DNA from: Acutalibacteraceae bacterium
Lineage (GTDB): Bacteria; Bacillota; Clostridia; Oscillospirales; Acutalibacteraceae
Direction: 5' to 3'
Length of the DNA: 50,901 bases
Assembly: GCA_045536515.1 (NCBI GenBank)
Contig: JAZSNQ010000152.1
Span: 1 to 50,901, forward strand
In this document: piece after piece, positions 2,333-46,092 of the stretch
Layout: every line of letters starts with the position of its first letter
Numbering within the stretch: position 1 is the first letter of the stretch
Notes under the pieces: generated by a model
What the model was told of the DNA's origin: nothing
The model's input: the letters and a program-made list of their open reading frames with translations, nothing else
Database searches by the model: none
Made by a program: the position numbers and the translations under genes

Positions 2333-2505
2333 AAGTCAGAGAGTGTAAAGGCTGCAAACATTGCGAAAGGCGAACCTTTTCCACCTATCACATTCCTAAA
2401 AACTATCACCCTGTCGGATTCTCTCACGCTTACGCATATTGTACTCTGCATCAGAAGAGAGTATCCGAGGTCAGAAAATGTAACAAGGAGCGTACAAAGA
2501 AATGA
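2329..2505 (+). CDS. Small Cys/His-rich protein (58 aa, not in ORF track)
   Basis: MKVRECKGCKHCERR...; ATGA overlaps with both neighbours; GGAG RBS. Confidence 0.7.
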   Translation: MKVRECKGCKHCERRTFSTYHIPKNYHPVGFSHAYAYCTLHQKRVSEVRKCNKERTKK

Positions 2506-3263
2506 AGGCTACATTGAAATATCCGGGTAGCAAGTGGCGAATTGCCGATTGGCTTATAGAACACTTTCCCGAACACAAAGTATATTGCGAACCGTTCTTT
2601 GGCAGCGGTGCGGTTTTCTTCAAAAAAAAGCCGTCTTACGTTGAAACAATAAACGATGTTGACGGAAATATAGTAAATCTATTTAAGGTCTGCCGTGAAC
2701 AGCCTGAAGCTCTTGCAAATGCTATGGAGTTTACACCTTTTTCAAGAGAGGAATTTGTTGATTGTTACGATATGACTGTCGGCGATGCAGTTGAAAGAGC
2801 AAGACGGACATTAGTGCGTTATCATCAATCTTTCGGAACAAGTAACAGCTCAAGAAACAGTTGGAAAAACACACAGACTGCAGGAGGTCCAAGATGCGCA
2901 ACAATGTGGAACTATCTTCCGGATTCTATTATGGAATGTTGCGAACGCCTGAAAAATGCACAGATTGAGAACATAGACGGCATTGAGCTTATTAAAAGGT
3001 ACAATCACCCGGACACACTTATTTATTGTGACCCACCATATCTGCAATCCCTACGGAAGAAAAATATGTACGCTCACGAGCTCGGCGATGAAAGACACCT
3101 TGAAATGCTTGAAATCCTGAAACAAAGCAAATCAAAAATTATTTTAAGCGGCTACGATAACGATCTTTACAATAAAATGCTCCCCGATTGGCGTACTGAT
3201 ACAAAGCAGACTACGGCTCAAAGGGGATTACATAGAACAGAAAAAATATGGATGAATTTTTAA
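2502..3263 (+). CDS. DNA adenine methyltransferase (Dam/D12 class)
   Basis: KYPGSK, EPFFGSGAV (motif I), DPPY (motif IV). Confidence 0.93.
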   Translation: MKATLKYPGSKWRIADWLIEHFPEHKVYCEPFFGSGAVFFKKKPSYVETINDVDGNIVNLFKVCREQPEALANAMEFTPFSREEFVDCYDMTVGDAVERARRTLVRYHQSFGTSNSSRNSWKNTQTAGGPRCATMWNYLPDSIMECCERLKNAQIENIDGIELIKRYNHPDTLIYCDPPYLQSLRKKNMYAHELGDERHLEMLEILKQSKSKIILSGYDNDLYNKMLPDWRTDTKQTTAQRGLHRTEKIWMNF

Positions 3264-3462: not shown

Positions 3463-3645
3463 ATGGCAAGAGATTATAAACCTGAACCGCATACAGTATG
3501 TGTAGAGTGCGGAAAACCTATCAGCTTAAATGAAGGTTGCATTTGGACGAAGCAAAGAGGTTTTCCACCTACTTTTATACATAAGGAATGTTACGAAAAG
3601 TTATTACCGAAGAATCGAGGGAAAGCAGATGGAACGCCAACCTAA
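3463..3645 (+). CDS. Small zinc-finger-like protein
   Basis: CVECGK...HKEC; AAAGG upstream. Confidence 0.6.
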   Translation: MARDYKPEPHTVCVECGKPISLNEGCIWTKQRGFPPTFIHKECYEKLLPKNRGKADGTPT

Positions 3646-4563
3646 TACAGAATATGTGCTGTCAACCTCTTACGGCAAGGACAGTATGGCTTGTTTGAAA
3701 GCTATATATCAGATTAGCTTACCTCTTGACCGCATCGTACACGCAGAGGTTTGGGCAACAGACACTATTCCGGCGGACTTACCGCCTATGGTTGATTTCA
3801 AGAAATATGCAGACCAAGTAATTAAATTCAGATATGGTATTGATGTTGAACATATACACGCCGTTGATAAGAATGGCGAAAAACTAACTTACGAGAAGAT
3901 GTTTTACCATAAGCCTGTACGCAAGGCTAAACCGGGGGGGGATTCTCGGATTCCCCACAATCAGAATACCTTGGTGCAACAGCCGACTCAAACTATCTGC
4001 CATACAAAGGATTTCCACTCACAAGGGGAAGTTGGTGCAAGAAGCTCAAAACGACTTATGCAGTGTGGCAGCATTTACGGATTTCCAATATCGTCCCCAC
4101 GGGGGGAATTGGTGTACCGCAATCAAAACGAGAGTTTTCAACTCTGCCCCATTCACAGGGGGCAATTACAAATACTGTGAGTTATCTCGGCATTGCTGCC
4201 GATGAACCCCTCCGCATTGAAAGGCACAAAGACAAGGCGATAATGCCCTTAACCATTATAGGTTGGGACGAAGCGTATTGTCGGCAGTGGTGTGAAGAAA
4301 ATATGCTACTTGCTCCTACATACACAGATTCTCTGCGTGGTGGGTGTTGGTTCTGTCATAACCAAAGTGTAGGACAGCTCCGACTGTTAAGAAAGAAATA
4401 TCCCGAGTATTGGCAACTACTGTTGAAATGGGATAATGATTCGCCTGTTACCTTTAAGCCTGACGGACACACGGTACACGATTTTGAGATACGCTTTGCC
4501 GCAGAGGACAAAGGATTGGTAGTACCGGGTGATAGTCGTTTCAGGTGGAAACAGGTATTATAA
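3629..4563 (+). CDS. PAPS reductase / DndC-like PP-loop protein, frameshifted as sequenced
   Basis: N-part (3629-4180) has SYGKDS PP-loop; C-part in another frame has YLGIAADE and RGGCWFC; joined through G8 tract 3934-3941 and three motif cassettes. Confidence 0.85.
3934..4162 (+). repeat. Poly-G tracts (G8 3934-3941, G6 4101-4106, G5 4158-4162) with three degenerate GGATTYCC..TTGGTG..TCAAA cassettes
   Basis: GGATT at 3948, 4009, 4079; TGG-TGY at 3972, 4033, 4110. Confidence 0.85.
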
Positions 4564-11047: not shown

Positions 11048-12482
11048 CGATTTTGCGATTGAGTTGATGCGTTCTTCCTATGCTGCTTATTGTTATTTCG
11101 TACATAAAGAAAAATGGATTGATACAAAGTTTCACAGGTTTTTGGCGGATAAGGTTCAAACTTTCGTTGAAACGGTAACGGGTAATCCTTACGACATATT
11201 GGTGCTGTCCACACCTCCGCAGCACGGTAAGAGTATGACCGTTACCGAAACCTTTCCGAGTTGGTATGAGGGCAAATATCCTGACAGACGATGTATCGTA
11301 GCTTGTTATAATGATGACTTTGCCGGAAAATTCGGCAGACGTAATAAATCAAAGATTGAAGAATACGGACAATTCATATTCAACATATCGCTTTCTAAAT
11401 CCTCTGACCGTGATATTGAGATAGCCGATCACAACGGCAGCATCATCACAAGAGGTATCATGTCGGGTATTACAGGTAACTCCGGCGATTTAATCATCAT
11501 TGATGACCCGGTAAAGAACAGACAAGAAGCCGACAGCGTGAATTACCGTGAAAGACTGTGGGAAGAATGGCAGAACTCAATTAAGACGAGAACACAGGCA
11601 GGTACAAAGATAATCATTATTCAGACAAGGTGGCACGAGGATGACCTTGCAGGGCGTGTAATCCGAGAGGAAAACAATGTTGAGGTTGTTAATATCCCGG
11701 TTGAAGCTGAGGAAAACGACATACTCGGCAGAAAAGTTGGCGATGCCCTTTGTCCTGAAATCGGAAAAGACAATAAATGGCTTCAAGCGTTCAAAGCAAG
11801 CTACACAGACGGCATGAGAGCTTGGAACGCACTGTTTCAGGGCAGACCAACATCTGAAGAAGGTAATATATTCAAGCGTGAGTGGTGGCGGTTTTATGAT
11901 GTGTTGCCGGAGCATCTTCCGCTTAAAGTCATTTCAGTAGATGCGACATTCAAAGATAATGCGGATTCAGACTTTGTTGCTATCGAGGTATGGGGCAAGC
12001 TTAACGCAGATTTTTACCTGATTGATATGTTAAAGCGGCGTATGGGTTTTCCTGATACGTTGAAAGCAATTAAGGCAATGAATGCGAAATACCCTGACAG
12101 GCATTCCATACTGATTGAGGACAAAGCCAACGGTCCCGCAATTATCGCAATGCTCAAGCACGAAATATCCGGCATTATCCCGGTAGAACCAAAAGGCTCA
12201 AAGGTTGCAAGAGCGAATGCAGTTACAGGCATAATCGAAAGCGGAAATGTTTATCTCCCCCGGTATGCCGATTTTACGAGTGAATTTATAGAGGAACACG
12301 CAGCATTCCCTAACGGCGTTAATGATGACTTGGTGGACAGCTGCACACAGTTCCTCGATAAATACAAATTCTTTGGTGCTGATTACAGAGAAGATAATCG
12401 GACACAGTTTGAAAAGGATTTGCAGAGATACAAAAATAAGCTACTGCGGAACAGCAGTAGGACAAAGAGAGGTTATTACTAA
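11031..12482 (+). CDS. terL: Terminase large subunit
   Basis: PPQHGKS Walker A, IIIDDP, QTRWHEDDL, IEDKANG, FPNGVNDDLVD. Confidence 0.95.
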   Translation: MSVNNNDFAIELMRSSYAAYCYFVHKEKWIDTKFHRFLADKVQTFVETVTGNPYDILVLSTPPQHGKSMTVTETFPSWYEGKYPDRRCIVACYNDDFAGKFGRRNKSKIEEYGQFIFNISLSKSSDRDIEIADHNGSIITRGIMSGITGNSGDLIIIDDPVKNRQEADSVNYRERLWEEWQNSIKTRTQAGTKIIIIQTRWHEDDLAGRVIREENNVEVVNIPVEAEENDILGRKVGDALCPEIGKDNKWLQAFKASYTDGMRAWNALFQGRPTSEEGNIFKREWWRFYDVLPEHLPLKVISVDATFKDNADSDFVAIEVWGKLNADFYLIDMLKRRMGFPDTLKAIKAMNAKYPDRHSILIEDKANGPAIIAMLKHEISGIIPVEPKGSKVARANAVTGIIESGNVYLPRYADFTSEFIEEHAAFPNGVNDDLVDSCTQFLDKYKFFGADYREDNRTQFEKDLQRYKNKLLRNSSRTKRGYY

Positions 12483-13048
12483 TGTATGTAAAACAGGTAA
12501 AAAGAAAATGCAGTGTAAGAGGATGCAAAAACACAGAATGTTTTGCTATCTCACGAACTCGTGAGGTTGGCAACACAGTTATCATTTGTAAAAGCTGTTT
12601 GGGAAAAGCTCTTGGAGCTATTGATGAAATAGACCCAAAAACAAAGAGCAATATCCCGGCACTTGATAACACATCAGCACCGTCTTTGTTCTTTAATGCA
12701 AAGGCACTTGGTACGGATGCAGCAGAAACAAAGGTTGATGATGTTCCCTCTGTGACGCCTGATAACGGACAGGAAAACACGACACCCCCTGCCGATGATA
12801 GCGACAAAGCGCCTGAACAGACTGGTGGTGTTGACCCTGCTGATGACACATCAGGTGCAGACGTTGTAACTCCACCTGCTAACACTGTTCCCCTCGCACC
12901 TGATGCGGAGAACGGCGCAAGCGATGATGTAATGCCCCCGGCAGATGTAACAGAGTTTAAATGTCCTATATGCGGCAGAGCATTTGACAGCGAAAAGGGA
13001 CTTAACACGCACCTCAGATACTGCAAACCGCAGACTGACGGTGAATAA
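12482..13048 (+). CDS. Protein with N-terminal Cys cluster, acidic Pro-rich linker and C-terminal C2H2-like finger
   Basis: CSVRGC..CKSC; FKCPICGRAFDSEKGLNTHLRYC. Confidence 0.75.
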   Translation: MYVKQVKRKCSVRGCKNTECFAISRTREVGNTVIICKSCLGKALGAIDEIDPKTKSNIPALDNTSAPSLFFNAKALGTDAAETKVDDVPSVTPDNGQENTTPPADDSDKAPEQTGGVDPADDTSGADVVTPPANTVPLAPDAENGASDDVMPPADVTEFKCPICGRAFDSEKGLNTHLRYCKPQTDGE

Positions 13049-28161: not shown

Positions 28162-31100
28162 ATGGCAAATTGGAAAGAAAGTGCGAAAAAAAGTCTTGAA
28201 AATAGAACTGCAAATAATTCTACGCCTACTGTATCTGCCCCGAGTACACCTGCGGATGCTTCAAAATCACCAACTACCGGGGTGACAAATCCCGGTAGTT
28301 GGCAAGACAGTGCCAAAAGTAGCCTTGAATCAAGGGGCTATATTGCACCTGAAAACCGTTTGTATGAATTGAAACTCAACAACGGTAAGAATTTCGGCAT
28401 AGTCAGCTATGGAGCTTACAACGCTGTTAAAAATAATAAGCTTGACGATTACACCCCTAAAAACGAGGAAGAGAGAAAAGCTCTTGACGATTTCAAGGTA
28501 TACGCAGCAGAAGTGACCAAAGAGGCGGAAGCGGCTGCAAAACAAAAAAGAATCGACAGCAACCCTGTGTTCAAGAGGTACAACATTGACCCTGCGAACT
28601 TTAACCAACAGGATTTTCTTGACTGGCTTGAAAATAACAACATGCAGTTATATGACGCAGACAATTCAGGGCTGCACTATGGCTCTAAAGTTAAGGGTGG
28701 TTTTTTAGGTTTTGGCGGTAAAAAGCTTGCTACTCAGCAGCAAATCGAGGATGCCGATGTTCTATACGAGCTTCAAGCAAATAACTACAGAACCGAATTA
28801 GCACAGAGCGACAAAGGTGCTTTTTGGTCGGCTGTGGGCGGCTTGGCAGACGGTTTGTTCTTCGGTGGCTTGACAGCCTTTGGCGACCATATGGCGAAAT
28901 CAGATTATGAAAAAGCAGGATTAGACCCTGAAAGCTACGTCAGTCCTACACAAGCTTGGGCTAAAACAAAATCGGAAAACGCTGTTGCACATTTTGCAGG
29001 CGATTTAGCAGGTTCGGTTGTTACATTAGGACCTTTAAGCAAGGGAGTCAGCGCAGCGACAAAGGGCGTAGGTTGGATTGCAAATAGTCCGCAGTGGGTA
29101 CAAAGTGCCATTAACAGTGGTATTACTTTTGCTGTTGCAGGTGGCGCGGAAACAGCTTTTGACGGTGGCGATCTGAAAGATGTACTGATAAGCACAGGTG
29201 TAAATTTTGTAGGCGGTGCGGTTGGCGGTTCTTTAAGTAGCAAAGTCGGCACGCTCGGGGAAAGAATCCTGTTCAACAAAGGTTTGCAGCATAAAATAAT
29301 TCCCGAGATGATACGCAACGGCTTTTCTTCTGCTGCCTTTGCAGGTGGTAAGGTTGCATCTACCTATTTCCTTTATCCTGAAGAATACAGACCTACTGCG
29401 GAAGAAATGGCAAAGGATATTGGCGTAGCCTTTGCGTTTGGCGCTATTTCATCAGGTATAAACACGATGAAAGCATCAGCACAAAACAAAAAATATCTTG
29501 ATGACCTATATCAGAAGATGGCATCAGATTATGAAAGTATGGCGAAAGCCAACATCAACGGTAAAAGCGATATATCCGGCATTCGTAAGTTTGCAAAAAA
29601 TGTTGTCGGTTACAGTAACGCTATGGAAGCGTACTTAACAGGCAAAGAATTTAATGCAGCAATAGACGGAAACACGTACACATTCACGCCGAACAAGGTT
29701 CGTTTGGTCGGTCAGGATAAGTATGTTAAGTCAATCCTTTCAGAATTACAGACTATCCGAAATAACGCAAATGCCGTATTAAATGGTGTTGGTACTCCTA
29801 CAACAGATTTGGCGACCACCACACCCGCAAGTGACAGTGCAACTACTCCGGCGGTTGTCCCCACTCTCCCGAGTGGTGGCGCTCCAACAGGCGATGCAAA
29901 CACTCCTGTACCGCCTATTGTTTCTGCGCCGCCTGTAAGCAGCACACCTATCATTGATACGAGCTCTCCGTCCGTCCCTGCTTCTGCATCAGGCGAATTA
30001 AGCGAGATAATGGGTGCAGGTGAAATCACAAAGTTTACACCTGAATCCGCAAGCGGTGAGATAAAGCGATTGGAAAATATCCTCATTGCAAAAGGTGCAG
30101 ACGATGTATCACGCCGAGAGATTGTTGATACAGCACTTGAAATTGAAAAAGCATTGGCCGGTAGCGATAAAACTATCCGAAGTGTTTTTAACAACATATC
30201 GAAAATCACAAGTGGCGCTGTTACGGAGATTAAAAACAAAGCAGGCATATCAACTGCATACTGGAAATTGTTCGGCGAAAACTTTAAGGCAATACCGTCA
30301 GGAAGCGTAACCGATAATGTTAAATTGATTACCGAGTATGTAAACGCCTACACAGAAGCTTTGAAAAACGGTAATCCCGAAAAATTTAAGGCCGCCGTTG
30401 TTTCCGCAGACGGTAAAGACCTGTCTGCAGAACTGCCGCAGACCATTATGCGGAATGTTATCCCTGCAAATGCTCAAAACGCAGGTGAATACAGGTTAGT
30501 TGCAACACAGACTAAAAACATTATCAGTGATGTCGATGTTCAGATCGCAAGTGAAAGAGCCGAGATATACGGTGCTGAATCCAATACAGGCGAAAAAACT
30601 GAAACAAGAGAAGTTACCAACAGTCAGGCAGATACCCTTGCTGCGAATGAGCAGGTGAAAGCCTCTGAAACCGATTCTGTGAAAGATGCACAGACGTACA
30701 ATGTTATAATATCCAACCTAAAAAGAAAAGGCGAAGAACTCGGGGTGTTGGATAGAGCTTTCTTCACACGTTTACAAGAGGTTGAGAACTTCTATAATCC
30801 TACCGCAAGCGACAGAGCTTTAATAAGTAGTGAATTTCAGAGAGTGTTTGCAGGTAACACAGACCCCCTCGTTGCGAATTGGCTTGACAGCATCAGTGTA
30901 GCTGCGCAGCCTGTAACGAGCATGAATGAGCAAAACATGCATGTTAGCACTGAAAATACCCCTGAAAATGCGGCGACCGTTGATGTGGATTCAGACGAGG
31001 GCGTTGCGGATGTTTATAAATTACTGGATGATCTCGGCTTGACGTACGCTGAGAAAGACGTTATACTTAAATATAAAGGTGTAGACAGTTATTTTATAAA

Positions 31101-34100
31101 CGGTCTTTTACGAAGTGGACTTCCTTTAAGCAAAGAACAGACTGATTTTGTGAAATTGGTGAATGCCGCACTTGATAAATTTCCTACATACGGCGGCGTT
31201 GTATACAGGAATATCGGCTTTGATTCTCGTGAAGATTTTGAGGACTTTATATCAAAGCATCAGGGTGTTGATACAATAAAGTACGAAGCCTTTACGTCTG
31301 CATCGAAAGAACCAGACGGGTATCCTGTGGAACTGCCGTACACAGTGCGCTACATTATACAAGGCTATAGCTGTAAAGACGTATCCAAAATAGGAATACT
31401 CGAAGAAAATGAGGTTCTTTTTAAGTCGGATACGGAATTTCGTATCAATTCATTTGAAGTCAATGGGAATGAGATACAAATACAGTGCGAGGAGTTGAAA
31501 ACAGATGGCGCAGAGTTACGCACATCTTTTGGCGAAAACAGAAACGAAGGAAAAAGTGATGTCACTGGTGAGCAAGATTCCTCTTTCCGAACAGGCGATC
31601 AAGCTAATCAAGGATTGGGTGATCTTCGAGAAGGAAGCGGAAGCGCTAATGAGTTATCTGACACAGAATCCGCAGGTGAGCGAAGAAACACTGGTGAAAA
31701 CAGTTCTTCAGATAGCGTGGAATTACGCGAAGACGATAGGTATGTCCCCGGCACACAGGGAGTGCTACAGCGTAAAGCGTTAGCAGAATCAGAAAGCCCA
31801 CGAGACGAAATTCTAAGTCTGAAGCGTACAAAAAATATTTATTCCTTATTCAAGGGTGCAGCAAGGGTTGTTGTCGGTAAAGATATTATTACTGACGGCT
31901 TTGTGGTGCTCCCTCTAACTAATGAGTCACTTGCAAATGTCAAAAAGGTTGCAGGTGATGTTGTACAGGAAAACCCGAACTTTGAGATGCATAAATTCTA
32001 CCATGCTGATAACGATGTTGTCATTCAGGGTAATCCTAAAGTCGGTGAAGCTACTGCAAGCAATAATAAAACCATAATGTCATACACATTCAAAATTGAT
32101 GATGCGTTCTATTCTTGCAAACAGGAATTTATTGATGCTTTTAATAACGGAAAGAACATAATCAAGGCAAACAGAGCTGTTAACATTCCTTGGACCGTTC
32201 ACAGCGAAAACGGCGACCTCGTTGCACTGTTTTTAGGGTTGAGGGCAAAGGTAACAGAAGAAAGCTATAATCAGATGTTGTCTGTCGCTGAAATCAAGGC
32301 CGCAGAGCAGCAGAAAAAAGCTGACAAATCCAAACAGGCTTTTAACCCATCAGAGGTAAAAACAATCGTTAAAGGCAGCGGCATACCTCGTGTGTTTGAA
32401 ATGGACGGCTCTAAATATGTTACAGAGGGTCATTTCGCTTTGAGAACCGATGATGCAGGTATTGCACAGTTAAATGGAACCGTCATACCTTATCATTCAA
32501 TGAAAGACGGTATGCAGACTATTCCGGCAGATACCGTTAAAAAGCTGTTGGATAGCTCATATTCGGTAGATGTTGGGGAGCTTGCTCCTTATACTCCCGA
32601 GAGTGAAAAAGGGGCAAAAACACCGCCTTATTATGCTTTTGTTGCAGACGGTATTGCTCATCAGTATAGCAAAAAGTTTGTCGATGCTCTTAAAAAGCGT
32701 AGCATATCAATGAAGCTTACAAGCGGTGGGACTCTTAATACTACTCTGCTTGTAGGGTACGATGCAGACGGACACATCACGGGTTTTGTTTTACCTGTCG
32801 ATACAAACGGCAATAGCTTCGTTGATAAAGACGGAAACAAAATACCCTTTGCTACAAACGACAATTTGAAAGCTCTTGTAAAAGAAACAGTAGCAAATGA
32901 AATAAGAGCAGGTAAAAATACACCTGTGGTATCTAAAAAAGTATCTTCTGAAGCTCCGACAGAGGTTGAAAAGAACGAAGATGTATCGGGAAGTGAGCCT
33001 GACAGTGCTGTAATAGCAACAAAGAGCAAAGGCACAAAAACCGTAGCTAAATTTGTTGCATCGAGATTAGCACACGGTAAAAAGATACCTGCTGCGGAAC
33101 TTGCAAAAGTGGCTAATGTTGCGTTCGGCGGCACTATGGCCGATAACGCATACTCCATAAAAGATGCGTATGATGCTATGGAGCTTGGTGTGAATCAGCA
33201 TATCCTTTCAACGGAAGACATGTCAGCAGAAAAAATGCTTGAGCTCTTGGAACTTCTTCCCACGCAAACTAAGAGAACCGAGGATATGATAAAGTATCAG
33301 CAGTTTTCTACTCCGCCGTCTATTGCTTATTTAGCAAACTATGTCGCAAATGTAAACGCAAATGACATTATGCTTGAACCGTCCGCAGGTATCGGTGGTA
33401 TCGCAGTATTTGCGAAAAAAGACGGTGCGGCAGTTTACGTTAATGAGCTTGACGAACGCAGATTGAGCATTCTGAAAAACCTACCTTTTGATGGTTTCTT
33501 TAATGAAAACGCAGAACAGCTCGACAACATTCTCGGCGGTCAGATTGAGCCTACTGTTATTGTTATGAATCCCCCGTTTTCTTCTTCGTCCGAAAGAAAT
33601 ATGCAGAATACAAAAATAGGGGCAAAACACATTGAACAGGCTCTTAAAATCCTTGCGCCAAATGGCAGACTTGTTGCTATTGTCGGTCACGGTATGGGTG
33701 ACGGAGCACCTGCTTTCCGTAATTGGTGGAAAGATATTAAATCACAATATAATGTTAGAGCCAACATCCGTATAAACGGCAAAAACTACAACAAGTACGG
33801 TACAAATTTTGATATTCAGATGCTTGTTATCGACAAAAACGGTGCTACGACATACACCGAAACAGGCTTTGTCGATACCCTGCAAGAGTTACAGGAGAAA
33901 TTAGGAGGTATAAGAGATGAAAGACCTGCTATTGACTATTCGGCAAATGAACAAAGAACCCCTGCAACTACACGCACAGAGGATGTTACAACAGGAAAAA
34001 CAACCGATGTCGGAAACAGAACTGTATCTGATGCAGGTAGCCTTGCAGATAAGAGAAAATCCGCAGACAATGCAAACCTTGAAAAACAGTCTGAGCGAAA

Positions 34101-37100
34101 AGGTATTCAATCAACTGATGCAGACAGTGGAAAACCTGCAATCTCTACGCCCGAAAGCACAGATGTTATGGCTAACAAGGACAGAGGAATGGGAACAGGG
34201 CAGCAAAGCAGACCTGTTGGAAACCAAAACCCTGTTGGAGTTAGTGACAGCGATAGCGGACAATCTGATATACAGACAAGACGAGCTGAACCTCGAAAGA
34301 GAGTAAAGCACAAAGAACTGACTGACAGTATATTTGAGCATTACCAAACACAGCCGCTTCGTCTGAAGAACACACAGCCGCACCCTGCAAAAGTAAGCGA
34401 GAGTGCCGCCATGAGTGCCATTGAACCGCCCGTTGTTACATACAGACCCAACATTCCGCAGAGCATTGTTGAAAACGGCGTATTATCAGACGTACAGTTG
34501 GAAGCAATATCCTATGCCGGACAAAGCCATTCACAAACCTTGCCTAACGGGAACACAAGAGGGTTCTTCTTAGGTGACGGTACCGGTATCGGTAAAGGTA
34601 GAACAATCGCCGGAATGATGCTTGATAACTATAATCAGGGTAGAAAAAAATCATTGTGGGTAACGCTTAATTCAAGCCTTGTAAACGATGCAAAGCGTGA
34701 TGTAAAAGCTCTCTTCGGTGATTCTGATTTAGTTACACAGTTTGTAGGCGGTAATAAAGCGGACAGCGTATTAAACACTGATGAAGCTATTATGGTGATC
34801 AGTTACAGTGCTTTATCAAAAGGTTTTGACAGCGGCAATTCAAACTTTGAAAAAATTGTCAAATGGCTTGGTAAAGACTTTGACGGCTTAATTGTATTCG
34901 ATGAAGCCCATAAAATGGGTAATGCGACAGCTACAAAGGGTACAAGAGGCGTTAAAAAGGCAAGTCAGACAGGCCTTGCAGGTATCGCGCTGCAAGAAGC
35001 GTTACCAAAAGCAAAGATTGTTTATTCTTCTGCAACAGGTGCGACAGAGGTTGAGAACCTGCGTTATGCTGAAAGACTCGGCTTGTGGGGCGATGGCACA
35101 GCTTTTGTAACAGGTGATGATTTCGTAAGTAAAATTAAAGCAGGGGGACTTGCGGCAATGGAGCTTATTGCAAGAGATATGAAAGCAATGGGCGTGTACT
35201 TATCCCGAAACATCAGCTATGAAGATGTACGCTATGACAAGATTACCCATAAGCTCACAGGACAGCAGAAAAAAATATATGATGAACTTGCACGCAGTTG
35301 GCAAATCGTTCTTAACAATATCAACAAGGCTTTGGACACAACAAACCAAAGCAAAGACGGCACTGCGAGAGGTCGTGCGTTAGGCGCTTTTTGGAGTTCA
35401 CAGCAGCGATTCTTTAATCAGATATTAACCTCTATGCAAGTACCGAGCGTTATAGCAGATATTGAAAAGCAATTAGCTGACGGAAAATCTTGCGTGATTC
35501 AGTTGGTAAGTACCAATGAAGCGGCGCAGAATGAAGAATTCGCAAGGCTCAAAGCAGAAGATTTAGAGCTTGATGAATTTGACCTGACACCAAAACAGAT
35601 GCTTATGTCTTACATTGAAAACTCATTCCCGGTACAGCAGTTTGAGGAATACCGAGACGATGAGGGCAATGTTAGAAGCAAACCTGTTTACGATAGCAAG
35701 GGCAACCCTGTTATGAATCGTGAAGCTGTTAGACAGCGTGAGGACTTGCTTGCTAAACTTGGCAGCATTAAAGTACCATCCTCACCGATTGATATGATTA
35801 TCAATCATTTCGGGACAGATATGGTCGCTGAAAATACAGGCCGTGCAAGACGAGTTGTTCAGAAAGACGGTAAATTCATTGAGGAAAAAATCGGCAGTAA
35901 AAAAGATGCCGATGTAGATGCTTTCCAAAATGGCAACAAGCGAATTATTATATTCTCAAAAGCAGGTGGCACGGGTAAATCGTATCACGCTGACAGAGCT
36001 GCAAAGAATCAGCAGCAGAGAGTTCACTATTTGCTTGAAGCAGGTTGGCAAGCTGATAATGCGGTACAGGGTTTTGGTCGTTCACATCGAAGCAATCAGG
36101 CATCAGCACCAATATTCAAACTTGTTACAACAGATTTGAAAGGTCAAATGCGTTTTATATCAACAATCGCAAAAAGACTTGACCAACTTGGCGCAATGAC
36201 AAAAGGACAAAGACAAGCAGGTGGACAGGGTATGTTCTCTGCGAACGATAACCTTGAAAACAGTTTTGCGGCAGATGTGTTGGCTGTATTCTACAAGGAC
36301 TTAATTGCAAACAGAGTTGATGGCATCAGTGACGGTCTTGCCATTGTCGAAAAACTTGGACTGAGAGAAAAAATCCTTGATGATTATAACCGTATTATTG
36401 TTACAGCTCCCGAGCTTCGTGAGGTAAACAAATTCTTAAATAGAATTTTATCACTGGAAAGCTCCGAACAGAATACCGTGTTTGACGGATATTCAGAGCG
36501 TTTGCAGGATGCAACCGAAAAGGCAATGCAAGCAGGGACTCTTGATAAAGGTCTTGAAAACTATAAGGCGGATAAAATCACGCTGAATGAGGTTCAGGAC
36601 ATCAGAGAAGATGAAAGAAGCGGCGCTAAAACAAAGTATTATAATCTTACAGCAGAACACAAAATCAAACCTGTTAGATTTGAGGACGTAGCAACTGATA
36701 GTAAATCGTTTGTGGGGTTCTATCAGAACAAAACAACAGGCGCTGTCAGGGCAGTTATGCAGACATCTTCTACGACTGACCAATACGGAAATGTAACAAA
36801 CAATTATAAGCTTGTAGGTCAAGTTAAAAATGATTATGTAGCACAAAACCGTTTTTACGGTAATTGGACTAAACTCGAACCTGCAGAAGCAGCAAAACTT
36901 TGGAATGAAGAATTGTCAAGGCTTCCGGAATTCAGAAAAGAAAGTCTGCACTTGATAAGCGGCGTTGTTCTTCCTGTGTGGGATAAACTCCCGACAGAGA
37001 ATGTGCGAATATATCGTGTTCTTACCTCTGACGGTGAAATGCTTATCGGTAGAGTTGTCTCGGAAGATATGATTGACGGAACATTAAAACGTCTTGGATC

Positions 37101-40100
37101 TTCGAGGGCAAAAGAAAAAATTGCTACGACAGATTTAGTTACAGGTATTAAAAACGGTGATGTTGTACATCTTGAAAACGACTGGAGAATCGTTCAGAGA
37201 AAAGTATCGGGTGAAAATAGAATTGAGCTTGTGGGTCCTTCCTATGAACACTATGACCTACTTACCAAAAAAGGCGTGTTCACGGAAAGAATACAGTACA
37301 ACACAAGATATTTTATCCCTGCAGATACTAACACCGTAAAAATAATTGATGATATACTCAAACTTTCCCCGGTTATGCGTGTGGAAAATGCACGGTATTC
37401 CATCATTGAAAGTGAGGATTTTGCGTATGAGCAAACAGGAAACGATTTATTACCTCGAAACGGAAGATGGGGGCTTGATGAGAGTGCCGGAAAGCAAGCT
37501 GAAGGAATTTTCGGAAATGCAGAAAGCTCAAAAGCTCTCAGCACAGAAGAAAGAAACGCCTACGCAGCACAGCTCCGCAAAGACGGAAAAGTAGAAAGCA
37601 AACGTATTTGGACTATTGAAGCTGACTTCATCAAAGAGGATGCCTACAATGAAGAAATGAAAGAGATTATCGAAATGAATAAAAATTTCGGTATGAAGAT
37701 CACAGGCTTTTTCCTCGATGCAGGACGTTTAGCTTTCAGCCCCAATACCAAGGTCGGCGGTGTTATCTTCAATGGTGATGAGATATACATCTGCTACAAC
37801 CACCCGGAAAAATCGCCTTGGGCGATAGACCGTCACGAATTAGCGCACAGGTTATATAAATCATCCGAAATGCAAAAAGTAAAGCAACGCATATTGGGTA
37901 CAATCCCGGAAGATGTTAAGAGAAAAATACTTAGCCACCCTCGATATAAAAAATACGTTGCTCTTTTAAAAGACGATGACAAAGTTATGGAAGAAGTTAT
38001 CTGTGATGTAATGGCGGGTATGTCATATTACGATTTCGATTATGACTACACCGATTTAGTCAAAGCATATTGGAATAAAGACACAGCATTTATTGATTCC
38101 TACAAGGCGGCAGACTATATCAAAACAGCCGATACAGGTACAAATGATGCTTTTCTGTCAGAGGTCGGGTTCGGTAATGATGAACTGCTGCTCGCATCAG
38201 ACGATGCACCTACGGCTCAATACTTTGTATATGATACCGATGCAGAAGAATTAACCCCGGAACGCAGAAAAGAAATCTTTGAACAGTTTGACAAAGACCA
38301 TGCCGGAGTTGATAAACCTACACAAAAACAGTTGTGGGGTGAGCGTGCGGCGTGGGTAGCTCATAATATGACAAGAGTTTTTCCGAATATCCCAGAACGT
38401 GGTGAAAAAGGTACATTTTTTGCAGCGTTCCGCAAAAGTATGATACAGTGGAAAAACCTGCCTACCACTGCTTCCTTTATGGTTCAGGATAAGCTTAACA
38501 AAATGACAGAGGGATTAACTCCTGAAGAATTTAAGACGTTTTCGGAGCTTGTTTATTTCCTTGACTTACAGGAAGAAGCTCAAATTCAAAAAGAGCGTGG
38601 CTACACTGAAATACTGTTACCGAATGAGATAACCCCGAGTGAGGTTGATGCCATTGTAAAAGTGCTGAATGAAGAAGCAACCGAGAATGTTCAGCAAGCA
38701 CTTATAAAGAGGCAGAATATTTGGGATGCTCTCAAATCGCAGTACATAGAGCTTAACCGTTATATCGGTTTTGACACTGACGGAAAATTCAAGCGTAAAA
38801 ACTACTACCATCATCAGGTGATAGAGTATATGAACAATGGCGGCAAAGGTACAGGCAGCAGAGAAATTGGTATAAAGGCCGGACGTGGTTGGCTTAAAGA
38901 AAGACAGGGTTCTACCAAAGCAATCAACACTGACTTTTTGGCTGTTGAATACAAAGCTATGCTGCAAATGCAGTACGATGTATATATCGCTGAAACTCTT
39001 GGCAAAATTAAACAGCAGTATGACATCAAGCCGCAGCTTGAAAATGAAGCGTTTAAGAATAATAAAGAGGCTATAAATGCAATAATCCGTAAAGAAGCAA
39101 CAGGTAAAGACGGTAATATTATTCTTGATAGCAAGGGAAAACCTGATAGCGAAACGTATCGTCAGCAGCAGTGGTACAATTCACGCATTATGTTTGGTTT
39201 CAATGGCCTGTTTGATTTAGCTGATCGTAACGAGCTTCCTACCTATGACGGTGAATACATAAGAGTTGTCGAAGCATTAAAACGCCACGATTTGAATGTG
39301 CCGGGGCTGTATAAATATGTTGGCATAGTTGCAAGTACAAACCTGCCTGATAACGCAACCGATGCACAGGAACAGGCTGTGTTAAACGCAAGAACCGTTT
39401 TGAAATACACATCGCAAAAAAGAGAGTGGATAAAAAATGTTCTTGCTGATGATTATCAGACTTGGGAAACTCTTGCAAAGTCGATGAGTGATACACATAC
39501 CATTCATCAGCCAAGACGAGGTAATTATTTCTACACAAAAACCGTAATTGATGAAGATGCTTTCAACAAAGCTCATAATGATATGGTTTTAGCTTTAGCA
39601 TCAGGCGAAATTGATTTAGGTAATGTTGACATCACTAAGTTATTTACACAATATGCTGATACAGTACGGCTCACAGGTGCAGCCTACGAACAGTGGGTGT
39701 TACCAAATGAGATAGTCACCACAATGGATGAAATCGCAAATCCGAAAGCAGTAAATGTAGGTAGCAAAATTGCACGCAGTATGGTTTCGGCTTGGAAAGG
39801 TTGGGCAACAAGCATAAATCCTTTGAGGACTATAAAATTTGGTTTGCGTAATCTGTTCGGTGACTTAGATGCTGTTATTGCCGGAAATCCTAAAGTGACA
39901 ATGTATTCTAAAAAAGCTGTTCAGGACATCTATCAGGCAATGAGGTACAAAAAGTATTCTCCTGAATATATGGAATGGATTGAACGAGGTGGATACACAT
40001 CAATGATATTTGCAAATGAAATGGATTCGGAAATGCAAGACAAACTGTTTTCACATCTGAAAGACAAACAGGGTGTAAGCATTTTCAAAATCCCGGTTAA

Positions 40101-41367
40101 ACTGTTTGAAAAATATTATAACGGTGTAGAGAATGTTCATAATTTCCGTGAAGCAATACTCCGCTACTCTGCATATCTGTACTATAAAGAAGCGATTAAG
40201 CGTAACGGTGGAACTGTTAAAGACTTTGTTGCTTCTAACAGATACATTGTTAAGGGACTGAATACTGTTGAGGACAAAGCATATCAGCTTTCAAAGGATT
40301 TGCTTGGTGCGTATGATGAAGTCGGCAAAATGGGACAAACGCTCCGAAGATATTGGATTCCATTCTACTCCTTTACGGAAACTAACTTAAAGCGTTATTA
40401 CAGATTGTTTGAAAACATCATAGCTTCAGATGATAAAATACCGAAAAAAGCAGGTAAACTTTTACTCAAGGCGTTGATGGTAAATATGCTCGGTCTGCTT
40501 ATGGTTGCTTGGAATAAACTCGTTATGAAAGAGGAAGATGATAAGCTCCCTCCGTCTGTGAGAAATATTCCGCACCTTACATTAGGACAAATCGGTGAAG
40601 ATATTTACGCATTTAGACAGCTTGGCAGTTTTTCAGAATTACTTGAATGGTTTGGACTTGATGATTATAAATGGTCATCAGAGGACATTACCGCTCCGCT
40701 TGATAAAGCGTGGGGAATGATAACGCCTTTCCTGAAAATGCCGATTGAGTTAGCAAGTGGATTAAATTTATATCCATCACTTACACAACCCCGTGCGATT
40801 CGGGATAAATGGCAGCATTTCTTTAATTCTTTTGGCGTGGACGATTTATACAACGAAATCACAGGAAAGCCAACAAAGGGTATGGGTGAAATTCTTAAAG
40901 GCTCTGTTGTTTACAGTTACGATTACAAGGAAAGTGCCTACTATGAAATTCTTGACATCAAGCGTGAATATCAGGGTAAGACAGATAACACCATATATGG
41001 TACAGATGTAAAATCCAACGCTTTGTATTATATGAAAACGGCAGTTAGATACAAAGATAAAGAAGCTGCATTAAAATATCTTGATGAATACTTTGAAAAC
41101 GGCGGTACTGTTAAGGGCATTAAACAGTCATTCGCAACGCTTAATCCTATGTACGGATTCACAAGCAAGGATACAGCGGAAAAGGGTGAAGCCTTTATCG
41201 CATCGCTTACAGAGGATCAGAAAGAAAAATTGAAAATTGCACAGGACTATTACGAAAATGATTTAATGTTACCTGAAAATGTATTGGATAGGCTCGGTAA
41301 AAAAGGTATTACCGATGAAGAAGCTAAAAATGTTTTAAGGGGATACATTAAAGCGAAGTGCAAGTAA
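28162..41367 (+). CDS. Giant polyvalent (DarB-like) protein: membrane-like N-terminus, ADP-ribosyltransferase, N6-methyltransferase, strawberry-notch helicase, zincin peptidase, helical C-terminus
   Basis: ART R-S-E motifs (YR ~31204, TSAS ~31294, ENE 31405); EPSAGIGG ~33376 and NPPF ~33568; GDGTGIGKGR ~34573, DEAH ~34900, GRSHRSNQ ~36076; HELAH 37834. Confidence 0.9.
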   Translation: MANWKESAKKSLENRTANNSTPTVSAPSTPADASKSPTTGVTNPGSWQDSAKSSLESRGYIAPENRLYELKLNNGKNFGIVSYGAYNAVKNNKLDDYTPKNEEERKALDDFKVYAAEVTKEAEAAAKQKRIDSNPVFKRYNIDPANFNQQDFLDWLENNNMQLYDADNSGLHYGSKVKGGFLGFGGKKLATQQQIEDADVLYELQANNYRTELAQSDKGAFWSAVGGLADGLFFGGLTAFGDHMAKSDYEKAGLDPESYVSPTQAWAKTKSENAVAHFAGDLAGSVVTLGPLSKGVSAATKGVGWIANSPQWVQSAINSGITFAVAGGAETAFDGGDLKDVLISTGVNFVGGAVGGSLSSKVGTLGERILFNKGLQHKIIPEMIRNGFSSAAFAGGKVASTYFLYPEEYRPTAEEMAKDIGVAFAFGAISSGINTMKASAQNKKYLDDLYQKMASDYESMAKANINGKSDISGIRKFAKNVVGYSNAMEAYLTGKEFNAAIDGNTYTFTPNKVRLVGQDKYVKSILSELQTIRNNANAVLNGVGTPTTDLATTTPASDSATTPAVVPTLPSGGAPTGDANTPVPPIVSAPPVSSTPIIDTSSPSVPASASGELSEIMGAGEITKFTPESASGEIKRLENILIAKGADDVSRREIVDTALEIEKALAGSDKTIRSVFNNISKITSGAVTEIKNKAGISTAYWKLFGENFKAIPSGSVTDNVKLITEYVNAYTEALKNGNPEKFKAAVVSADGKDLSAELPQTIMRNVIPANAQNAGEYRLVATQTKNIISDVDVQIASERAEIYGAESNTGEKTETREVTNSQADTLAANEQVKASETDSVKDAQTYNVIISNLKRKGEELGVLDRAFFTRLQEVENFYNPTASDRALISSEFQRVFAGNTDPLVANWLDSISVAAQPVTSMNEQNMHVSTENTPENAATVDVDSDEGVADVYKLLDDLGLTYAEKDVILKYKGVDSYFINGLLRSGLPLSKEQTDFVKLVNAALDKFPTYGGVVYRNIGFDSREDFEDFISKHQGVDTIKYEAFTSASKEPDGYPVELPYTVRYIIQGYSCKDVSKIGILEENEVLFKSDTEFRINSFEVNGNEIQIQCEELKTDGAELRTSFGENRNEGKSDVTGEQDSSFRTGDQANQGLGDLREGSGSANELSDTESAGERRNTGENSSSDSVELREDDRYVPGTQGVLQRKALAESESPRDEILSLKRTKNIYSLFKGAARVVVGKDIITDGFVVLPLTNESLANVKKVAGDVVQENPNFEMHKFYHADNDVVIQGNPKVGEATASNNKTIMSYTFKIDDAFYSCKQEFIDAFNNGKNIIKANRAVNIPWTVHSENGDLVALFLGLRAKVTEESYNQMLSVAEIKAAEQQKKADKSKQAFNPSEVKTIVKGSGIPRVFEMDGSKYVTEGHFALRTDDAGIAQLNGTVIPYHSMKDGMQTIPADTVKKLLDSSYSVDVGELAPYTPESEKGAKTPPYYAFVADGIAHQYSKKFVDALKKRSISMKLTSGGTLNTTLLVGYDADGHITGFVLPVDTNGNSFVDKDGNKIPFATNDNLKALVKETVANEIRAGKNTPVVSKKVSSEAPTEVEKNEDVSGSEPDSAVIATKSKGTKTVAKFVASRLAHGKKIPAAELAKVANVAFGGTMADNAYSIKDAYDAMELGVNQHILSTEDMSAEKMLELLELLPTQTKRTEDMIKYQQFSTPPSIAYLANYVANVNANDIMLEPSAGIGGIAVFAKKDGAAVYVNELDERRLSILKNLPFDGFFNENAEQLDNILGGQIEPTVIVMNPPFSSSSERNMQNTKIGAKHIEQALKILAPNGRLVAIVGHGMGDGAPAFRNWWKDIKSQYNVRANIRINGKNYNKYGTNFDIQMLVIDKNGATTYTETGFVDTLQELQEKLGGIRDERPAIDYSANEQRTPATTRTEDVTTGKTTDVGNRTVSDAGSLADKRKSADNANLEKQSERKGIQSTDADSGKPAISTPESTDVMANKDRGMGTGQQSRPVGNQNPVGVSDSDSGQSDIQTRRAEPRKRVKHKELTDSIFEHYQTQPLRLKNTQPHPAKVSESAAMSAIEPPVVTYRPNIPQSIVENGVLSDVQLEAISYAGQSHSQTLPNGNTRGFFLGDGTGIGKGRTIAGMMLDNYNQGRKKSLWVTLNSSLVNDAKRDVKALFGDSDLVTQFVGGNKADSVLNTDEAIMVISYSALSKGFDSGNSNFEKIVKWLGKDFDGLIVFDEAHKMGNATATKGTRGVKKASQTGLAGIALQEALPKAKIVYSSATGATEVENLRYAERLGLWGDGTAFVTGDDFVSKIKAGGLAAMELIARDMKAMGVYLSRNISYEDVRYDKITHKLTGQQKKIYDELARSWQIVLNNINKALDTTNQSKDGTARGRALGAFWSSQQRFFNQILTSMQVPSVIADIEKQLADGKSCVIQLVSTNEAAQNEEFARLKAEDLELDEFDLTPKQMLMSYIENSFPVQQFEEYRDDEGNVRSKPVYDSKGNPVMNREAVRQREDLLAKLGSIKVPSSPIDMIINHFGTDMVAENTGRARRVVQKDGKFIEEKIGSKKDADVDAFQNGNKRIIIFSKAGGTGKSYHADRAAKNQQQRVHYLLEAGWQADNAVQGFGRSHRSNQASAPIFKLVTTDLKGQMRFISTIAKRLDQLGAMTKGQRQAGGQGMFSANDNLENSFAADVLAVFYKDLIANRVDGISDGLAIVEKLGLREKILDDYNRIIVTAPELREVNKFLNRILSLESSEQNTVFDGYSERLQDATEKAMQAGTLDKGLENYKADKITLNEVQDIREDERSGAKTKYYNLTAEHKIKPVRFEDVATDSKSFVGFYQNKTTGAVRAVMQTSSTTDQYGNVTNNYKLVGQVKNDYVAQNRFYGNWTKLEPAEAAKLWNEELSRLPEFRKESLHLISGVVLPVWDKLPTENVRIYRVLTSDGEMLIGRVVSEDMIDGTLKRLGSSRAKEKIATTDLVTGIKNGDVVHLENDWRIVQRKVSGENRIELVGPSYEHYDLLTKKGVFTERIQYNTRYFIPADTNTVKIIDDILKLSPVMRVENARYSIIESEDFAYEQTGNDLLPRNGRWGLDESAGKQAEGIFGNAESSKALSTEERNAYAAQLRKDGKVESKRIWTIEADFIKEDAYNEEMKEIIEMNKNFGMKITGFFLDAGRLAFSPNTKVGGVIFNGDEIYICYNHPEKSPWAIDRHELAHRLYKSSEMQKVKQRILGTIPEDVKRKILSHPRYKKYVALLKDDDKVMEEVICDVMAGMSYYDFDYDYTDLVKAYWNKDTAFIDSYKAADYIKTADTGTNDAFLSEVGFGNDELLLASDDAPTAQYFVYDTDAEELTPERRKEIFEQFDKDHAGVDKPTQKQLWGERAAWVAHNMTRVFPNIPERGEKGTFFAAFRKSMIQWKNLPTTASFMVQDKLNKMTEGLTPEEFKTFSELVYFLDLQEEAQIQKERGYTEILLPNEITPSEVDAIVKVLNEEATENVQQALIKRQNIWDALKSQYIELNRYIGFDTDGKFKRKNYYHHQVIEYMNNGGKGTGSREIGIKAGRGWLKERQGSTKAINTDFLAVEYKAMLQMQYDVYIAETLGKIKQQYDIKPQLENEAFKNNKEAINAIIRKEATGKDGNIILDSKGKPDSETYRQQQWYNSRIMFGFNGLFDLADRNELPTYDGEYIRVVEALKRHDLNVPGLYKYVGIVASTNLPDNATDAQEQAVLNARTVLKYTSQKREWIKNVLADDYQTWETLAKSMSDTHTIHQPRRGNYFYTKTVIDEDAFNKAHNDMVLALASGEIDLGNVDITKLFTQYADTVRLTGAAYEQWVLPNEIVTTMDEIANPKAVNVGSKIARSMVSAWKGWATSINPLRTIKFGLRNLFGDLDAVIAGNPKVTMYSKKAVQDIYQAMRYKKYSPEYMEWIERGGYTSMIFANEMDSEMQDKLFSHLKDKQGVSIFKIPVKLFEKYYNGVENVHNFREAILRYSAYLYYKEAIKRNGGTVKDFVASNRYIVKGLNTVEDKAYQLSKDLLGAYDEVGKMGQTLRRYWIPFYSFTETNLKRYYRLFENIIASDDKIPKKAGKLLLKALMVNMLGLLMVAWNKLVMKEEDDKLPPSVRNIPHLTLGQIGEDIYAFRQLGSFSELLEWFGLDDYKWSSEDITAPLDKAWGMITPFLKMPIELASGLNLYPSLTQPRAIRDKWQHFFNSFGVDDLYNEITGKPTKGMGEILKGSVVYSYDYKESAYYEILDIKREYQGKTDNTIYGTDVKSNALYYMKTAVRYKDKEAALKYLDEYFENGGTVKGIKQSFATLNPMYGFTSKDTAEKGEAFIASLTEDQKEKLKIAQDYYENDLMLPENVLDRLGKKGITDEEAKNVLRGYIKAKCK
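31505..31783 (+). CDS. Nested +1-frame gene A (92 aa), candidate ART immunity protein
   Basis: GAGGAG 31489-31494, ATG 10 nt later; helical product; host frame here is linker-like. Confidence 0.6.
   Translation: MAQSYAHLLAKTETKEKVMSLVSKIPLSEQAIKLIKDWVIFEKEAEALMSYLTQNPQVSEETLVKTVLQIAWNYAKTIGMSPAHRECYSVKR
33917..34306 (+). CDS. Nested +1-frame gene B (129 aa)
   Basis: AGGAGGT 33903-33909, ATG 7 nt later; spans methyltransferase-helicase linker. Confidence 0.68.
   Translation: MKDLLLTIRQMNKEPLQLHAQRMLQQEKQPMSETELYLMQVALQIRENPQTMQTLKNSLSEKVFNQLMQTVENLQSLRPKAQMLWLTRTEEWEQGSKADLLETKTLLELVTAIADNLIYRQDELNLERE
37427..37594 (+). CDS. Nested +1-frame gene C (55 aa)
   Basis: GTGAGGA 37412-37418, ATG 8 nt later; MSKQETIYYLETEDGGLMRVPESKLKEF. 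Confidence 0.58.
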   Translation: MSKQETIYYLETEDGGLMRVPESKLKEFSEMQKAQKLSAQKKETPTQHSSAKTEK

Positions 41368-41737: not shown

Positions 41738-41814
41738 TGGTGGGCCTTCGGGGACTCGAACCCAGGACCATCCGGTTATGAGCCGGGAGCTCTAGCCAAC
41801 TGAGCTAAAGGCCC
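41738..41814 (-). tRNA. tRNA-Ile2 (CAT anticodon); probable integration site of prophage 1
   Basis: GGGCCTTTAGCTCAGTTGG...CTCATAA...GTTCGAGTCCC..GGCCCACCA, 77 nt; acceptor stem resembles Firmicute Ile2 rather than Met. Confidence 0.9.
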
Positions 41815-46070: not shown

Positions 46071-46092
46071 TTGACTACTTTTGGACTACTTT
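46071..46092. repeat. Putative integrase arm sites
   Basis: Tandem GACTACTTT twice between att core and integrase stop. Confidence 0.55.

What the first reader, a model, noticed from the sequence alone, without database searches (positions are those of the whole stretch)
3629..4563. PAPS-reductase/DndC-like gene with three alternative motif cassettes, one per reading frame, gated by poly-G tracts
Seen: after G8 (3934-3941) there are three diverged copies of one motif: ILGFPTIRIPWCNSRLK (Gly codon 3948), YKGFPLTRGSWCKKLK (4009) and IYGFPISSPRG/NWCTAIK (4079, split by G6 4101-4106). Offsets of 61 and 70 nt put each start in a different frame, and all three frames are stop-free from 3931 to 4177. 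As sequenced (G8,G6,G5) translation stops at 4180. G9 alone gives a full-length protein using cassette 2. G7 plus G6->G5 gives cassette 1. G8 plus G6->G5 plus G5(4158)->G4 gives cassette 3. Known: the motif corresponds to the GYP..RWC..LK segment of DndC/PAPS-reductase family proteins, whose Cys acts with the C-terminal GCxxC. Inference: slippage or inter-cassette deletion selects among enzyme variants rather than just ON/OFF, perhaps switching specificity of a phage DNA-modification enzyme.
Basis: partly seen in the sequence, partly recalled or inferred. Interest (0 to 1): 0.88.

Follow-up and report, generated by a model that had tools for sequence, protein, structure and literature searches.

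The report
Three-frame enzyme cassette switch in prophage
A gut-phage enzyme gene that looks broken holds three different copies of its key cysteine segment, one per reading frame; slippery G-runs set which copy is read, and a conserved U-run plus RNA pseudoknot likely pulls ribosomes back into the common frame, so one gene would yield several enzyme versions, probably DNA-modifying ones.

Summary
Of 195 distinct homologous regions, 81 are multi-frame. These carry 1-4 diverged GFP..WC..LK cassettes, nearly always behind a G, C or GA repeat. Repeat length and frame vary among near-identical copies, including relatives of this window. Cassettes evolve as protein in their own frame (pN/pS 0.19-0.35). 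The 'third G tract' is not a switch. It is a stem of an H-type pseudoknot (98% paired, 8 of 12 pairs compensatory) lying 5-6 nt behind a TTTT(C) run fixed in the C-terminal frame. This signal is in 75 of 81 multi-frame and 1 of 114 single-frame regions. TTTTC gives a Phe codon in all three frames, so -1 and -2 ribosomal slips would both reach the C-terminal frame (inferred, untested). One natural allele deleted exactly this signal and hard-wired a cassette. As sequenced (G8/G6) the window reads no complete cassette. The enzyme has a PAPS-reductase fold but is neither CysH nor DndC; DNA modification is inferred. I found no paper describing this. Earlier scan notes saw it in other genomes and supplied the pseudoknot lead.

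The parts
3629..4563 (+). PAPS-reductase-like (PP-loop, three-Cys) prophage gene, interrupted as sequenced
   Evidence: both halves hit phrog_424; intact homologues fold like PAPS/APS reductase
3668..3685 (+). PP-loop SYGKDS
   Evidence: invariant in 68 intact homologues
3934..3941 (+). Selector repeat 1 (G8): G7 reads cassette 1, G9 cassette 2, G8 cassette 3
   Evidence: G7, G8 and G9 seen in related contigs
3948..3992 (+). Cassette 1, GFPTIRIPWCNSRLK
   Evidence: 8 of 16 substitutions in run X7's contig fall in its variable codons 3956-3971
4009..4050 (+). Cassette 2, GFPLTRGSWCKKLK
4079..4127 (+). Cassette 3, GFPISSPRG(G)NWCTAIK, complete only when repeat 2 is G5 or G8
   Evidence: intact in relative L001
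4101..4106 (+). Selector repeat 2 (G6) inside cassette 3
   Evidence: G6, G7, G8 (3 runs), G9, G10 (2 runs) in 8 related runs
4134..4139 (+). Predicted slippery site G-TTTTC: a Phe codon in each frame (TTT 4135, TTT 4136, TTC 4137)
   Evidence: TTTT in phase with the C-terminal frame in all 76 pseudoknot regions (71 exactly, 5 as a T5 run starting one base earlier)
4146..4181 (+).
   Evidence: coordinates; covariation; stem 1 in the MFE fold, z -2.64
4183..4563 (+). Common C-terminal half (YLGIAADE ... GCWFC at 4342-4356)
   Evidence: matches phrog_28782 and phrog_424
2502..3263 (+). Upstream Dam-type DNA methyltransferase (context only)
   Evidence: PF02086, TIGR00571 below its cut-off

Best explanation
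The gene is a multi-state switch: repeat length in the DNA sets which of three alternative cysteine cassettes is read in frame, and a conserved G-TTTTC site with a 3' pseudoknot likely makes ribosomes slip -1 or -2 back into the C-terminal frame, so each state would give a full-length enzyme with a different cassette. Shown: cassettes in different frames, repeat-length variation between samples, purifying selection on each cassette in its own frame, a covarying pseudoknot, and the fixed phase of the T-run. Inferred: slipped-strand switching within a population; -1 slippage from frame C+1 (well supported, about 0.85); -2 slippage from C+2 (about 0.7; +1 is the alternative). Also inferred: the cassette Cys is one of three [4Fe-4S] ligands, the enzyme adenylates and modifies phage DNA, most likely by sulfur transfer (about 0.6), and the variable residues set target specificity (about 0.5). 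In this lineage 7 of 9 frame combinations of the two repeats read a complete cassette; the window's own state (G8/G6) reads none and is predicted OFF.
For: Architecture: 81 of 195 regions are multi-frame; the T-run plus pseudoknot is in 75 of 81 versus 1 of 114, and that one (L025) has a second, degenerate cassette. A repeat is present in 72 of 75 pseudoknot loci versus 2 of 113 single loci. Neighbouring cassettes without a repeat between them are out of frame in 106 of 107 cases. Pseudoknot: 98.1% of 513 cells paired, 8 of 12 pairs with compensatory changes in both stems, 0 of 500 shuffles, slid controls 29-56%. Selection: pN/pS is 0.19-0.35 in the cassette's own frame versus 1.25-2.63 in the other two, for cassettes in C+0, C+1 and C+2. 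Open frames end at the signal: stops in the 90 nt before versus after it are 2 versus 51 of 73 (C+1) and 1 versus 46 of 51 (C+2). A G precedes TTTT (GTT TTC in C+2) in 24 of 25 lineages with a C+2 cassette versus 7 of 16 without. Switching: 12 of 14 near-identical clusters show more than one frame. Assembled states with a complete cassette arrive in C+0 16, C+1 20 and C+2 14 times of 76. Five of 7 relatives read across both tracts arrive in C+2 with a complete cassette. Natural controls: L274 lost exactly 17 nt (T-run, spacer, 5' strand of stem 1), fusing a C+1 cassette to the C-half. L266/L267 keep in-phase TTTTC with a different stem-loop 5 nt downstream. L045 lacks the signal and has a second repeat there. 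A fused state folds with the unused cassettes as a low-confidence loop. One site driving both -1 and -2 shifts, and short spacers favouring -2, are described for eukaryotic viruses (PMC5009743, passages).
Against: No frameshift was measured, and no raw reads, ribosome profiling or proteomics were available; both read lay-ons were contigs. The window's site (GAG TTT TC) offers re-pairing only for the Phe tRNA, not a full X_XXY_YYZ heptamer. A pseudoknot-driven -2 shift in Firmicutes has no precedent that I found. Pseudoknot loci are mostly one clade, so counts are not independent. The open-frame test for C+2 is partly circular because the cassette lies inside the window tested, and cassettes were found by a motif pattern. 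26 of 76 assembled states read no complete cassette up to the signal. No enzyme activity is shown; the only solved sequence relative is PDB 21FY 'PptA' (E 8.5e-5), whose function I could not find.
Confidence: 0.74

Rival explanations
1. DNA-only switching: coordinated indels in several tracts, or deletions between cassettes, create each fused protein; no recoding.
For: Two tracts vary in this lineage; L274 is a deletion-fused allele; L045 uses a second repeat.
Against: Tract 3 is invariant and usually not a homopolymer. 181 cassette copies have no repeat between them and the T-run, 122 of them outside the C frame. Only 1 deletion remnant among 119 regions without the pseudoknot. Does not explain the pseudoknot or the phased T-run.
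Confidence: 0.07
2. ON/OFF phase variation of the first cassette only; later cassettes are silent donors copied in by recombination.
For: Only the C+0 state is a plain ORF; cassettes are swapped between lineages (87 distinct peptides); some neighbours encode RecE-like exonucleases.
Against: Silent donors need no open frames, yet 181 of 181 cassette frames are open to the T-run and close after it. Off-frame cassettes are under purifying selection. The pseudoknot is left unexplained.
Confidence: 0.07
3. Split enzyme: off-frame states end near a GTG (4177) and the C-half is made by translational coupling, with the pseudoknot gating that start.
For: GTG at this place in 50 of 59 multi versus 0 of 20 single regions in the first set; the window has a GTGA overlap; PHROGs lists separate half families.
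Against: GTG is replaced by GTT or GTA with compensating stem-2 changes; 9 of 76 pseudoknot loci have no start codon there. The SD-like motif is 14 nt away. Stops fall within 12 nt of it in only 15 of 73 (C+1) and 0 of 51 (C+2) cases. The overlapping TGA is TGG in relatives X1 and X2. The phased T-run is not needed.
Confidence: 0.06
4. Transcriptional slippage at the T-run makes mRNAs with 1-2 extra U.
For: Would serve both off-frames with one site.
Against: The run is only 4-5 T, and a 3' pseudoknot is not yet transcribed when polymerase is on the run (reasoning).
Confidence: 0.04
5. Homopolymer assembly error in a decaying duplicated gene.
For: The window is a MAG contig with G-runs.
Against: Conserved across 41-45 lineages with G, C or GA repeats, plus covariation and selection.
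Confidence: 0.01

Closest known systems
Simple-sequence-repeat contingency loci, including phage T2 agt and T4 rIIA (bioRxiv 10.1101/2025.10.21.683753; abstract, outline and passages seen) and phase-variable methyltransferases
   Same: A hypermutable repeat inside a coding sequence changes the reading frame; population-level bet-hedging.
   Different: Those switch ON/OFF by truncation. Here each frame encodes an alternative functional segment and a downstream signal is predicted to rescue all frames.
Programmed ribosomal frameshifting: IS3-family -1 shifts, phage Mu -2, arterivirus nsp2TF -1/-2 site (PMC5009743; passages seen)
   Same: Slippery run, 5-6 nt spacer and 3' structure; one site serving -1 and -2.
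   Different: Known sites split ribosomes from one entry frame into several products. Here up to three entry frames, set by a DNA repeat, would be merged into one exit frame.
Specificity switching by DNA inversion or recombination (type I hsdS shufflons, invertible tail fibres; recalled, not searched)
   Same: One locus stores several alternative specificity segments.
   Different: The cassettes are direct, same-strand and stacked in different frames; no rearrangement is needed.
DndC/SspD and other PP-loop [4Fe-4S] sulfur transferases such as TtuA and LarE (PMC10853773, PMC8175902; passages seen); PDB 21FY 'PptA'
   Same: PP-loop, three conserved cysteines, PAPS-reductase fold; cassette Cys and GCxxC align with PptA.
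   Different: No DndC model hit and no dnd genes among the commonest neighbours. It is a 257-aa stand-alone phage protein, and its activity is unknown.
Phage 'cysH' auxiliary metabolic genes (phrog_424; PMC13369170, passages seen)
   Same: Same PHROG family label.
   Different: Lacks the CysH C-terminal catalytic motif (0 of 176 alignment rows) and sits among DNA methyltransferase and replication genes.
Helicobacter pylori futC (lead from an earlier AI note)
   Same: Poly-C phase variation confirmed in PMC2806470 (passages).
   Different: The -1 frameshift attributed to futC was not in the passages I read, so it is recalled only; no alternative cassettes are reported there.

Membership tests
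PAPS/APS-reductase-like PP-loop superfamily | PP-loop SxGKDS and Rossmann-like fold | tested here: met
   SYGKDS invariant; homologue model pLDDT 94.7; best match 7RGE PAPS reductase Z 11.8, rmsd 3.4, 157 aligned; phrog_424 E 1.6e-30
CysH PAPS/APS reductase (sulfate assimilation) | C-terminal catalytic cysteine (PMC8175902); motif ECG[LI]H recalled | tested here: not met
   0 of 176 alignment rows, which overlap between alignments; no cysH model hit in NCBIfam
DndC | Three cysteines for a [4Fe-4S] cluster (PMC10853773) | tested here: inconclusive
   C104 (90% or more), C178 and C181 (invariant) are conserved; cluster binding and geometry not examined
DndC | Sequence match to DndC models and dnd operon context | tested here: not met
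   No DndC model at E<=0.1; 12 common neighbour clusters scanned of the 40 listed are methyltransferases, polymerase, exonuclease, SSB, terminase or unknown
DndC / PptA-like DNA modification enzymes | Modifies DNA (e.g. phosphorothioate) | not testable with these tools
   Only homology to 21FY PptA (E 8.5e-5) and methyltransferase neighbours
SSR contingency locus | Coding repeat whose length and frame differ among near-identical copies | tested here: met
   12 of 14 clusters; tracts 1 and 2 in 8 runs
SSR contingency locus | High-frequency reversible switching within one population | not testable with these tools
   Only contigs were offered, no raw reads
Programmed ribosomal frameshift | Phase-fixed slippery run with a 3' structure at 5-9 nt | tested here: met
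   no Rfam family reaches its threshold
Programmed ribosomal frameshift | Measured trans-frame product | not testable with these tools
   needs reporter or mass spectrometry
Inversion shufflon | Alternative segments in opposite orientation | tested here: not met
   All cassettes lie on the gene's strand; inverted repeats were not searched

The most novel reading that the evidence does not exclude
A new kind of diversification device: a heritable repeat picks one of up to four active-site cassettes stored in overlapping frames, and a single ribosomal -1/-2 funnel merges all frames into a common C-terminus, letting gut phages switch the sequence specificity of a one-protein DNA-backbone (phosphorothioate-like) modification to evade changing restriction systems.
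Probability: 0.4. Interest if true: 0.96.

Novelty: categorically new. Interest (0 to 1): 0.9.

Why it matters
It would be a way to encode several enzyme variants in one short gene without rearranging DNA, joining phase variation with ribosomal recoding. It would also be a bacterial site that merges three entry frames into one. Many gut-phage 'cysH' genes counted as metabolic genes or pseudogenes would need re-annotation. The 87 natural cassette sequences give a ready library for asking what this common phage enzyme does and what sets its specificity.

Tried and rejected
Reinitiation at GTG 4177 was my first model and was dropped. Tract 3 as a switch: invariant. Pfam gives no hit for either window half or for intact L134; more distant relatives hit PF01507. 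Rfam: nothing above threshold. Foldseek returned only moderate PP-loop matches (TM about 0.4); neither fold search listed DndC or 21FY, which is inconclusive. The gene was not found in 60 related genomes searched, only in the window's own. Raw reads were unavailable, so within-sample tract variation is untested; small-share runs are no habitat evidence. The genome-contig scan ranked single-cassette genes first, so it served as control and says little about host range of the switch. The tree is a quick search only; the pseudoknot label needs 8 changes, but strong branches force only 2, so the number of origins is open (55 of 109 single rows kept). Ten literature searches found no description of this architecture or of PptA; subscription papers are not covered, and PMC3491471 was not held. 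Atlas look-alikes were unnamed or PAPS-reductase clusters. No complex was predicted.

Full report
Context. The window is contig C58 of a 2.5-Mb assembly. Bases 1 to about 41,400 are phage: DNA polymerase A, Dam-type methyltransferase, primase-helicase, terminase, P22-like portal and major head protein. Host-type genes follow a tRNA-Met at 41738-41814. The flagged gene lies between the methyltransferase and the primase-helicase. It was not found in 60 related genomes. Named homologues are mostly from gut Clostridia.

Observation. G/C runs of 8 or more occur 3 times in the whole genome.

Homologues. Four collection scans returned 320 loci, giving 195 distinct regions spanning both conserved anchors, the window included; loci lacking an anchor were dropped. 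114 are single-frame and 81 multi-frame. Multi-frame regions carry 1-4 recognisable cassettes, nearly always behind a G6-10, C8-10 or (GA)n repeat; two repeats can be nested (L016, L063). A repeat is present in 72 of 75 pseudoknot loci and 2 of 113 single loci. Successive cassettes with no repeat between them are offset by 1 (97) or 2 (9) modulo 3, and by 0 once. A separate class has two in-frame cassettes and no repeat (L156, L176, phage nd4).

Switching. Among 14 clusters of near-identical loci, 12 show more than one frame state. Contigs about 95% identical to the window from 8 runs in 7 studies read tract 1/tract 2 as G8/G8 (X1, X2), G9/G10 (X4, X5), G7/G9 (X6), G9/G6 (X7), G8/G7 (X8) and not covered/G8 (X3). 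Gap counts show no other indel between the tracts and the T-run. Tract 3 never changed where covered. By simulation these states read cassette 3, 2, 1, 2 and none, and five of the seven arrive at the C-terminal half two bases out of frame.

Selection. In pairwise comparisons of cassettes of equal length and at least 70% DNA identity, pN/pS is 0.19 (C+0), 0.31 and 0.35 (C+1), 0.22 and 0.32 (C+2) in the cassette's own frame. It is 1.25-2.63 in the other two frames. Off-frame cassettes are therefore maintained as protein. Pairs are not independent and cassettes were picked by motif.

How off-frame cassettes reach the C-terminus. I first suspected reinitiation at a conserved GTG. Earlier AI notes of this scan suggested a U-run with a pseudoknot, which I tested. 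In 43 distinct sequences the named pseudoknot is paired in 98.1% of 513 cells, with compensatory changes at 3 of 5 stem-1 and 5 of 7 stem-2 pairs; no shuffle of 500 and no slid control came close. A structural pattern search found TTTT plus pseudoknot in 75 of 81 multi-frame and 1 of 114 single-frame regions, with the T-run in phase with the C-terminal frame in all 76. The six exceptions are informative. L265 and L297 keep in-phase TTTTC with variant stems. L266 and L267 keep it with a different stem-loop 5 nt downstream. L045 has a second repeat instead. L270 has one cassette and plain ON/OFF. All 181 cassette frames with no repeat in between are open to the T-run, and most close within 90 nt after it (51 of 73; 46 of 51). 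At lineage level, C+2 is open over the last 120 nt in 23 of 25 lineages with a cassette there and 0 of 16 without (partly circular). Stops do not cluster at the GTG (15 of 73 and 0 of 51 within 12 nt).

Mechanism of the slip (inferred). G-TTT-TC offers tRNA-Phe a codon at 4135 (C), 4136 (C+1) and 4137 (C+2). A -1 slip from C+1 and a -2 slip from C+2 both re-pair on 4135, while a ribosome already in C has no cognate codon behind it. The commonest context, GGG TTT TC, is G_GGU_UUU in C+1, listed among strong -1 heptamers for mammalian ribosomes. The same review reports -2 shifts in phage Mu, a dual -1/-2 site in arteriviruses, and more -2 with shorter spacers in the HIV cassette (PMC5009743, passages). 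The window's own context lacks the P-site re-pairing, so efficiency may be low. L274 shows the intended product: against three relatives it lacks exactly 17 nt covering the T-run, spacer and 5' strand of stem 1, has lost its first cassette, and reads the former C+1 cassette straight into the C-half.

The enzyme. An intact single-cassette homologue models confidently and matches PAPS/APS reductases best (Z 11.8-10.1) and [4Fe-4S] thiolation enzymes in Foldseek. A fused three-cassette state keeps the core and leaves the unused cassettes as a low-confidence loop at about residues 131-180. The cassette Cys and GCWFC give three conserved cysteines. The residues between GFP and WC vary, though not more than the neighbouring loops, so their role in specificity is inference. 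The CysH catalytic motif is absent, no DndC model matches, and the commonest neighbour cluster (36 of 127 loci) is a DNA methyltransferase. The one solved sequence relative is PDB 21FY 'PptA'; I saw only its name, and reading it as phage phosphorothioation is a guess. My best reading is a phage DNA-modifying sulfur transferase used against restriction, about 0.6.

Novelty. The parts are known: phage contingency loci (10.1101/2025.10.21.683753; abstract, outline and passages), frameshift pseudoknots, and cassette-based specificity switching. A survey of prokaryotic frame transitions does not mention this family (PMC3711429, passages). Ten searches found no report of the combination; subscription papers and all supplements were not seen. 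Five earlier AI notes describe the same architecture in other genomes; they are leads, not support.

Verdict. A real and conserved multi-state switch. Cassette selection by repeat length is well supported, frame funnelling by ribosomal slippage is strongly indicated but unmeasured, and the enzyme's chemistry is open. Interest 0.9.

Noticed in passing
L206:4004-5875 (similar 624-aa ORFs in L214, L215, L217, L219, L222-L224, L230, L233): A single-cassette homologue is fused to a complete S-adenosylmethionine synthetase (Pfam N, M and C domains; only L206 scanned), near DNA methyltransferases. This may link the enzyme to SAM supply.
   Followed up: partly
window 3956-3971: Close relatives differ from the window mainly in the variable codons of cassette 1 (8 of 16 substitutions in run X7's contig), suggesting cassette replacement or diversifying selection.
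   Followed up: no
L156, L176, L195, L196, L199, L241 (phage nd4): Homologues with an extra in-frame stretch of about 135 nt, holding a recognisable second cassette in L156, L176 and L241, with no repeat or pseudoknot; both segments would be in one protein.
   Followed up: no
L266, L267: In-phase TTTTC followed by a long stem-loop built from the conserved YLGIAADE codons: a second, possibly independent frameshift stimulator.
   Followed up: partly
window 28162-41367: A 4401-aa virion-region protein with strawberry-notch-type helicase domains and a weak methyltransferase match, resembling DarB-type anti-restriction proteins (name recalled).
   Followed up: no
window 12482-13048: A 188-aa protein between terminase and portal with a weak C2H2 zinc-finger match below cut-off.
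   Followed up: no
window 41738-41814 and 46092-49672: tRNA-Met just past the phage genes (possible attachment site); a separate integrase and IrrE-like peptidase module on the minus strand.
   Followed up: no
L168 (cassette followed by C8): A single-cassette homologue out of frame at a C8 run, apparently plain ON/OFF phase variation.
   Followed up: no
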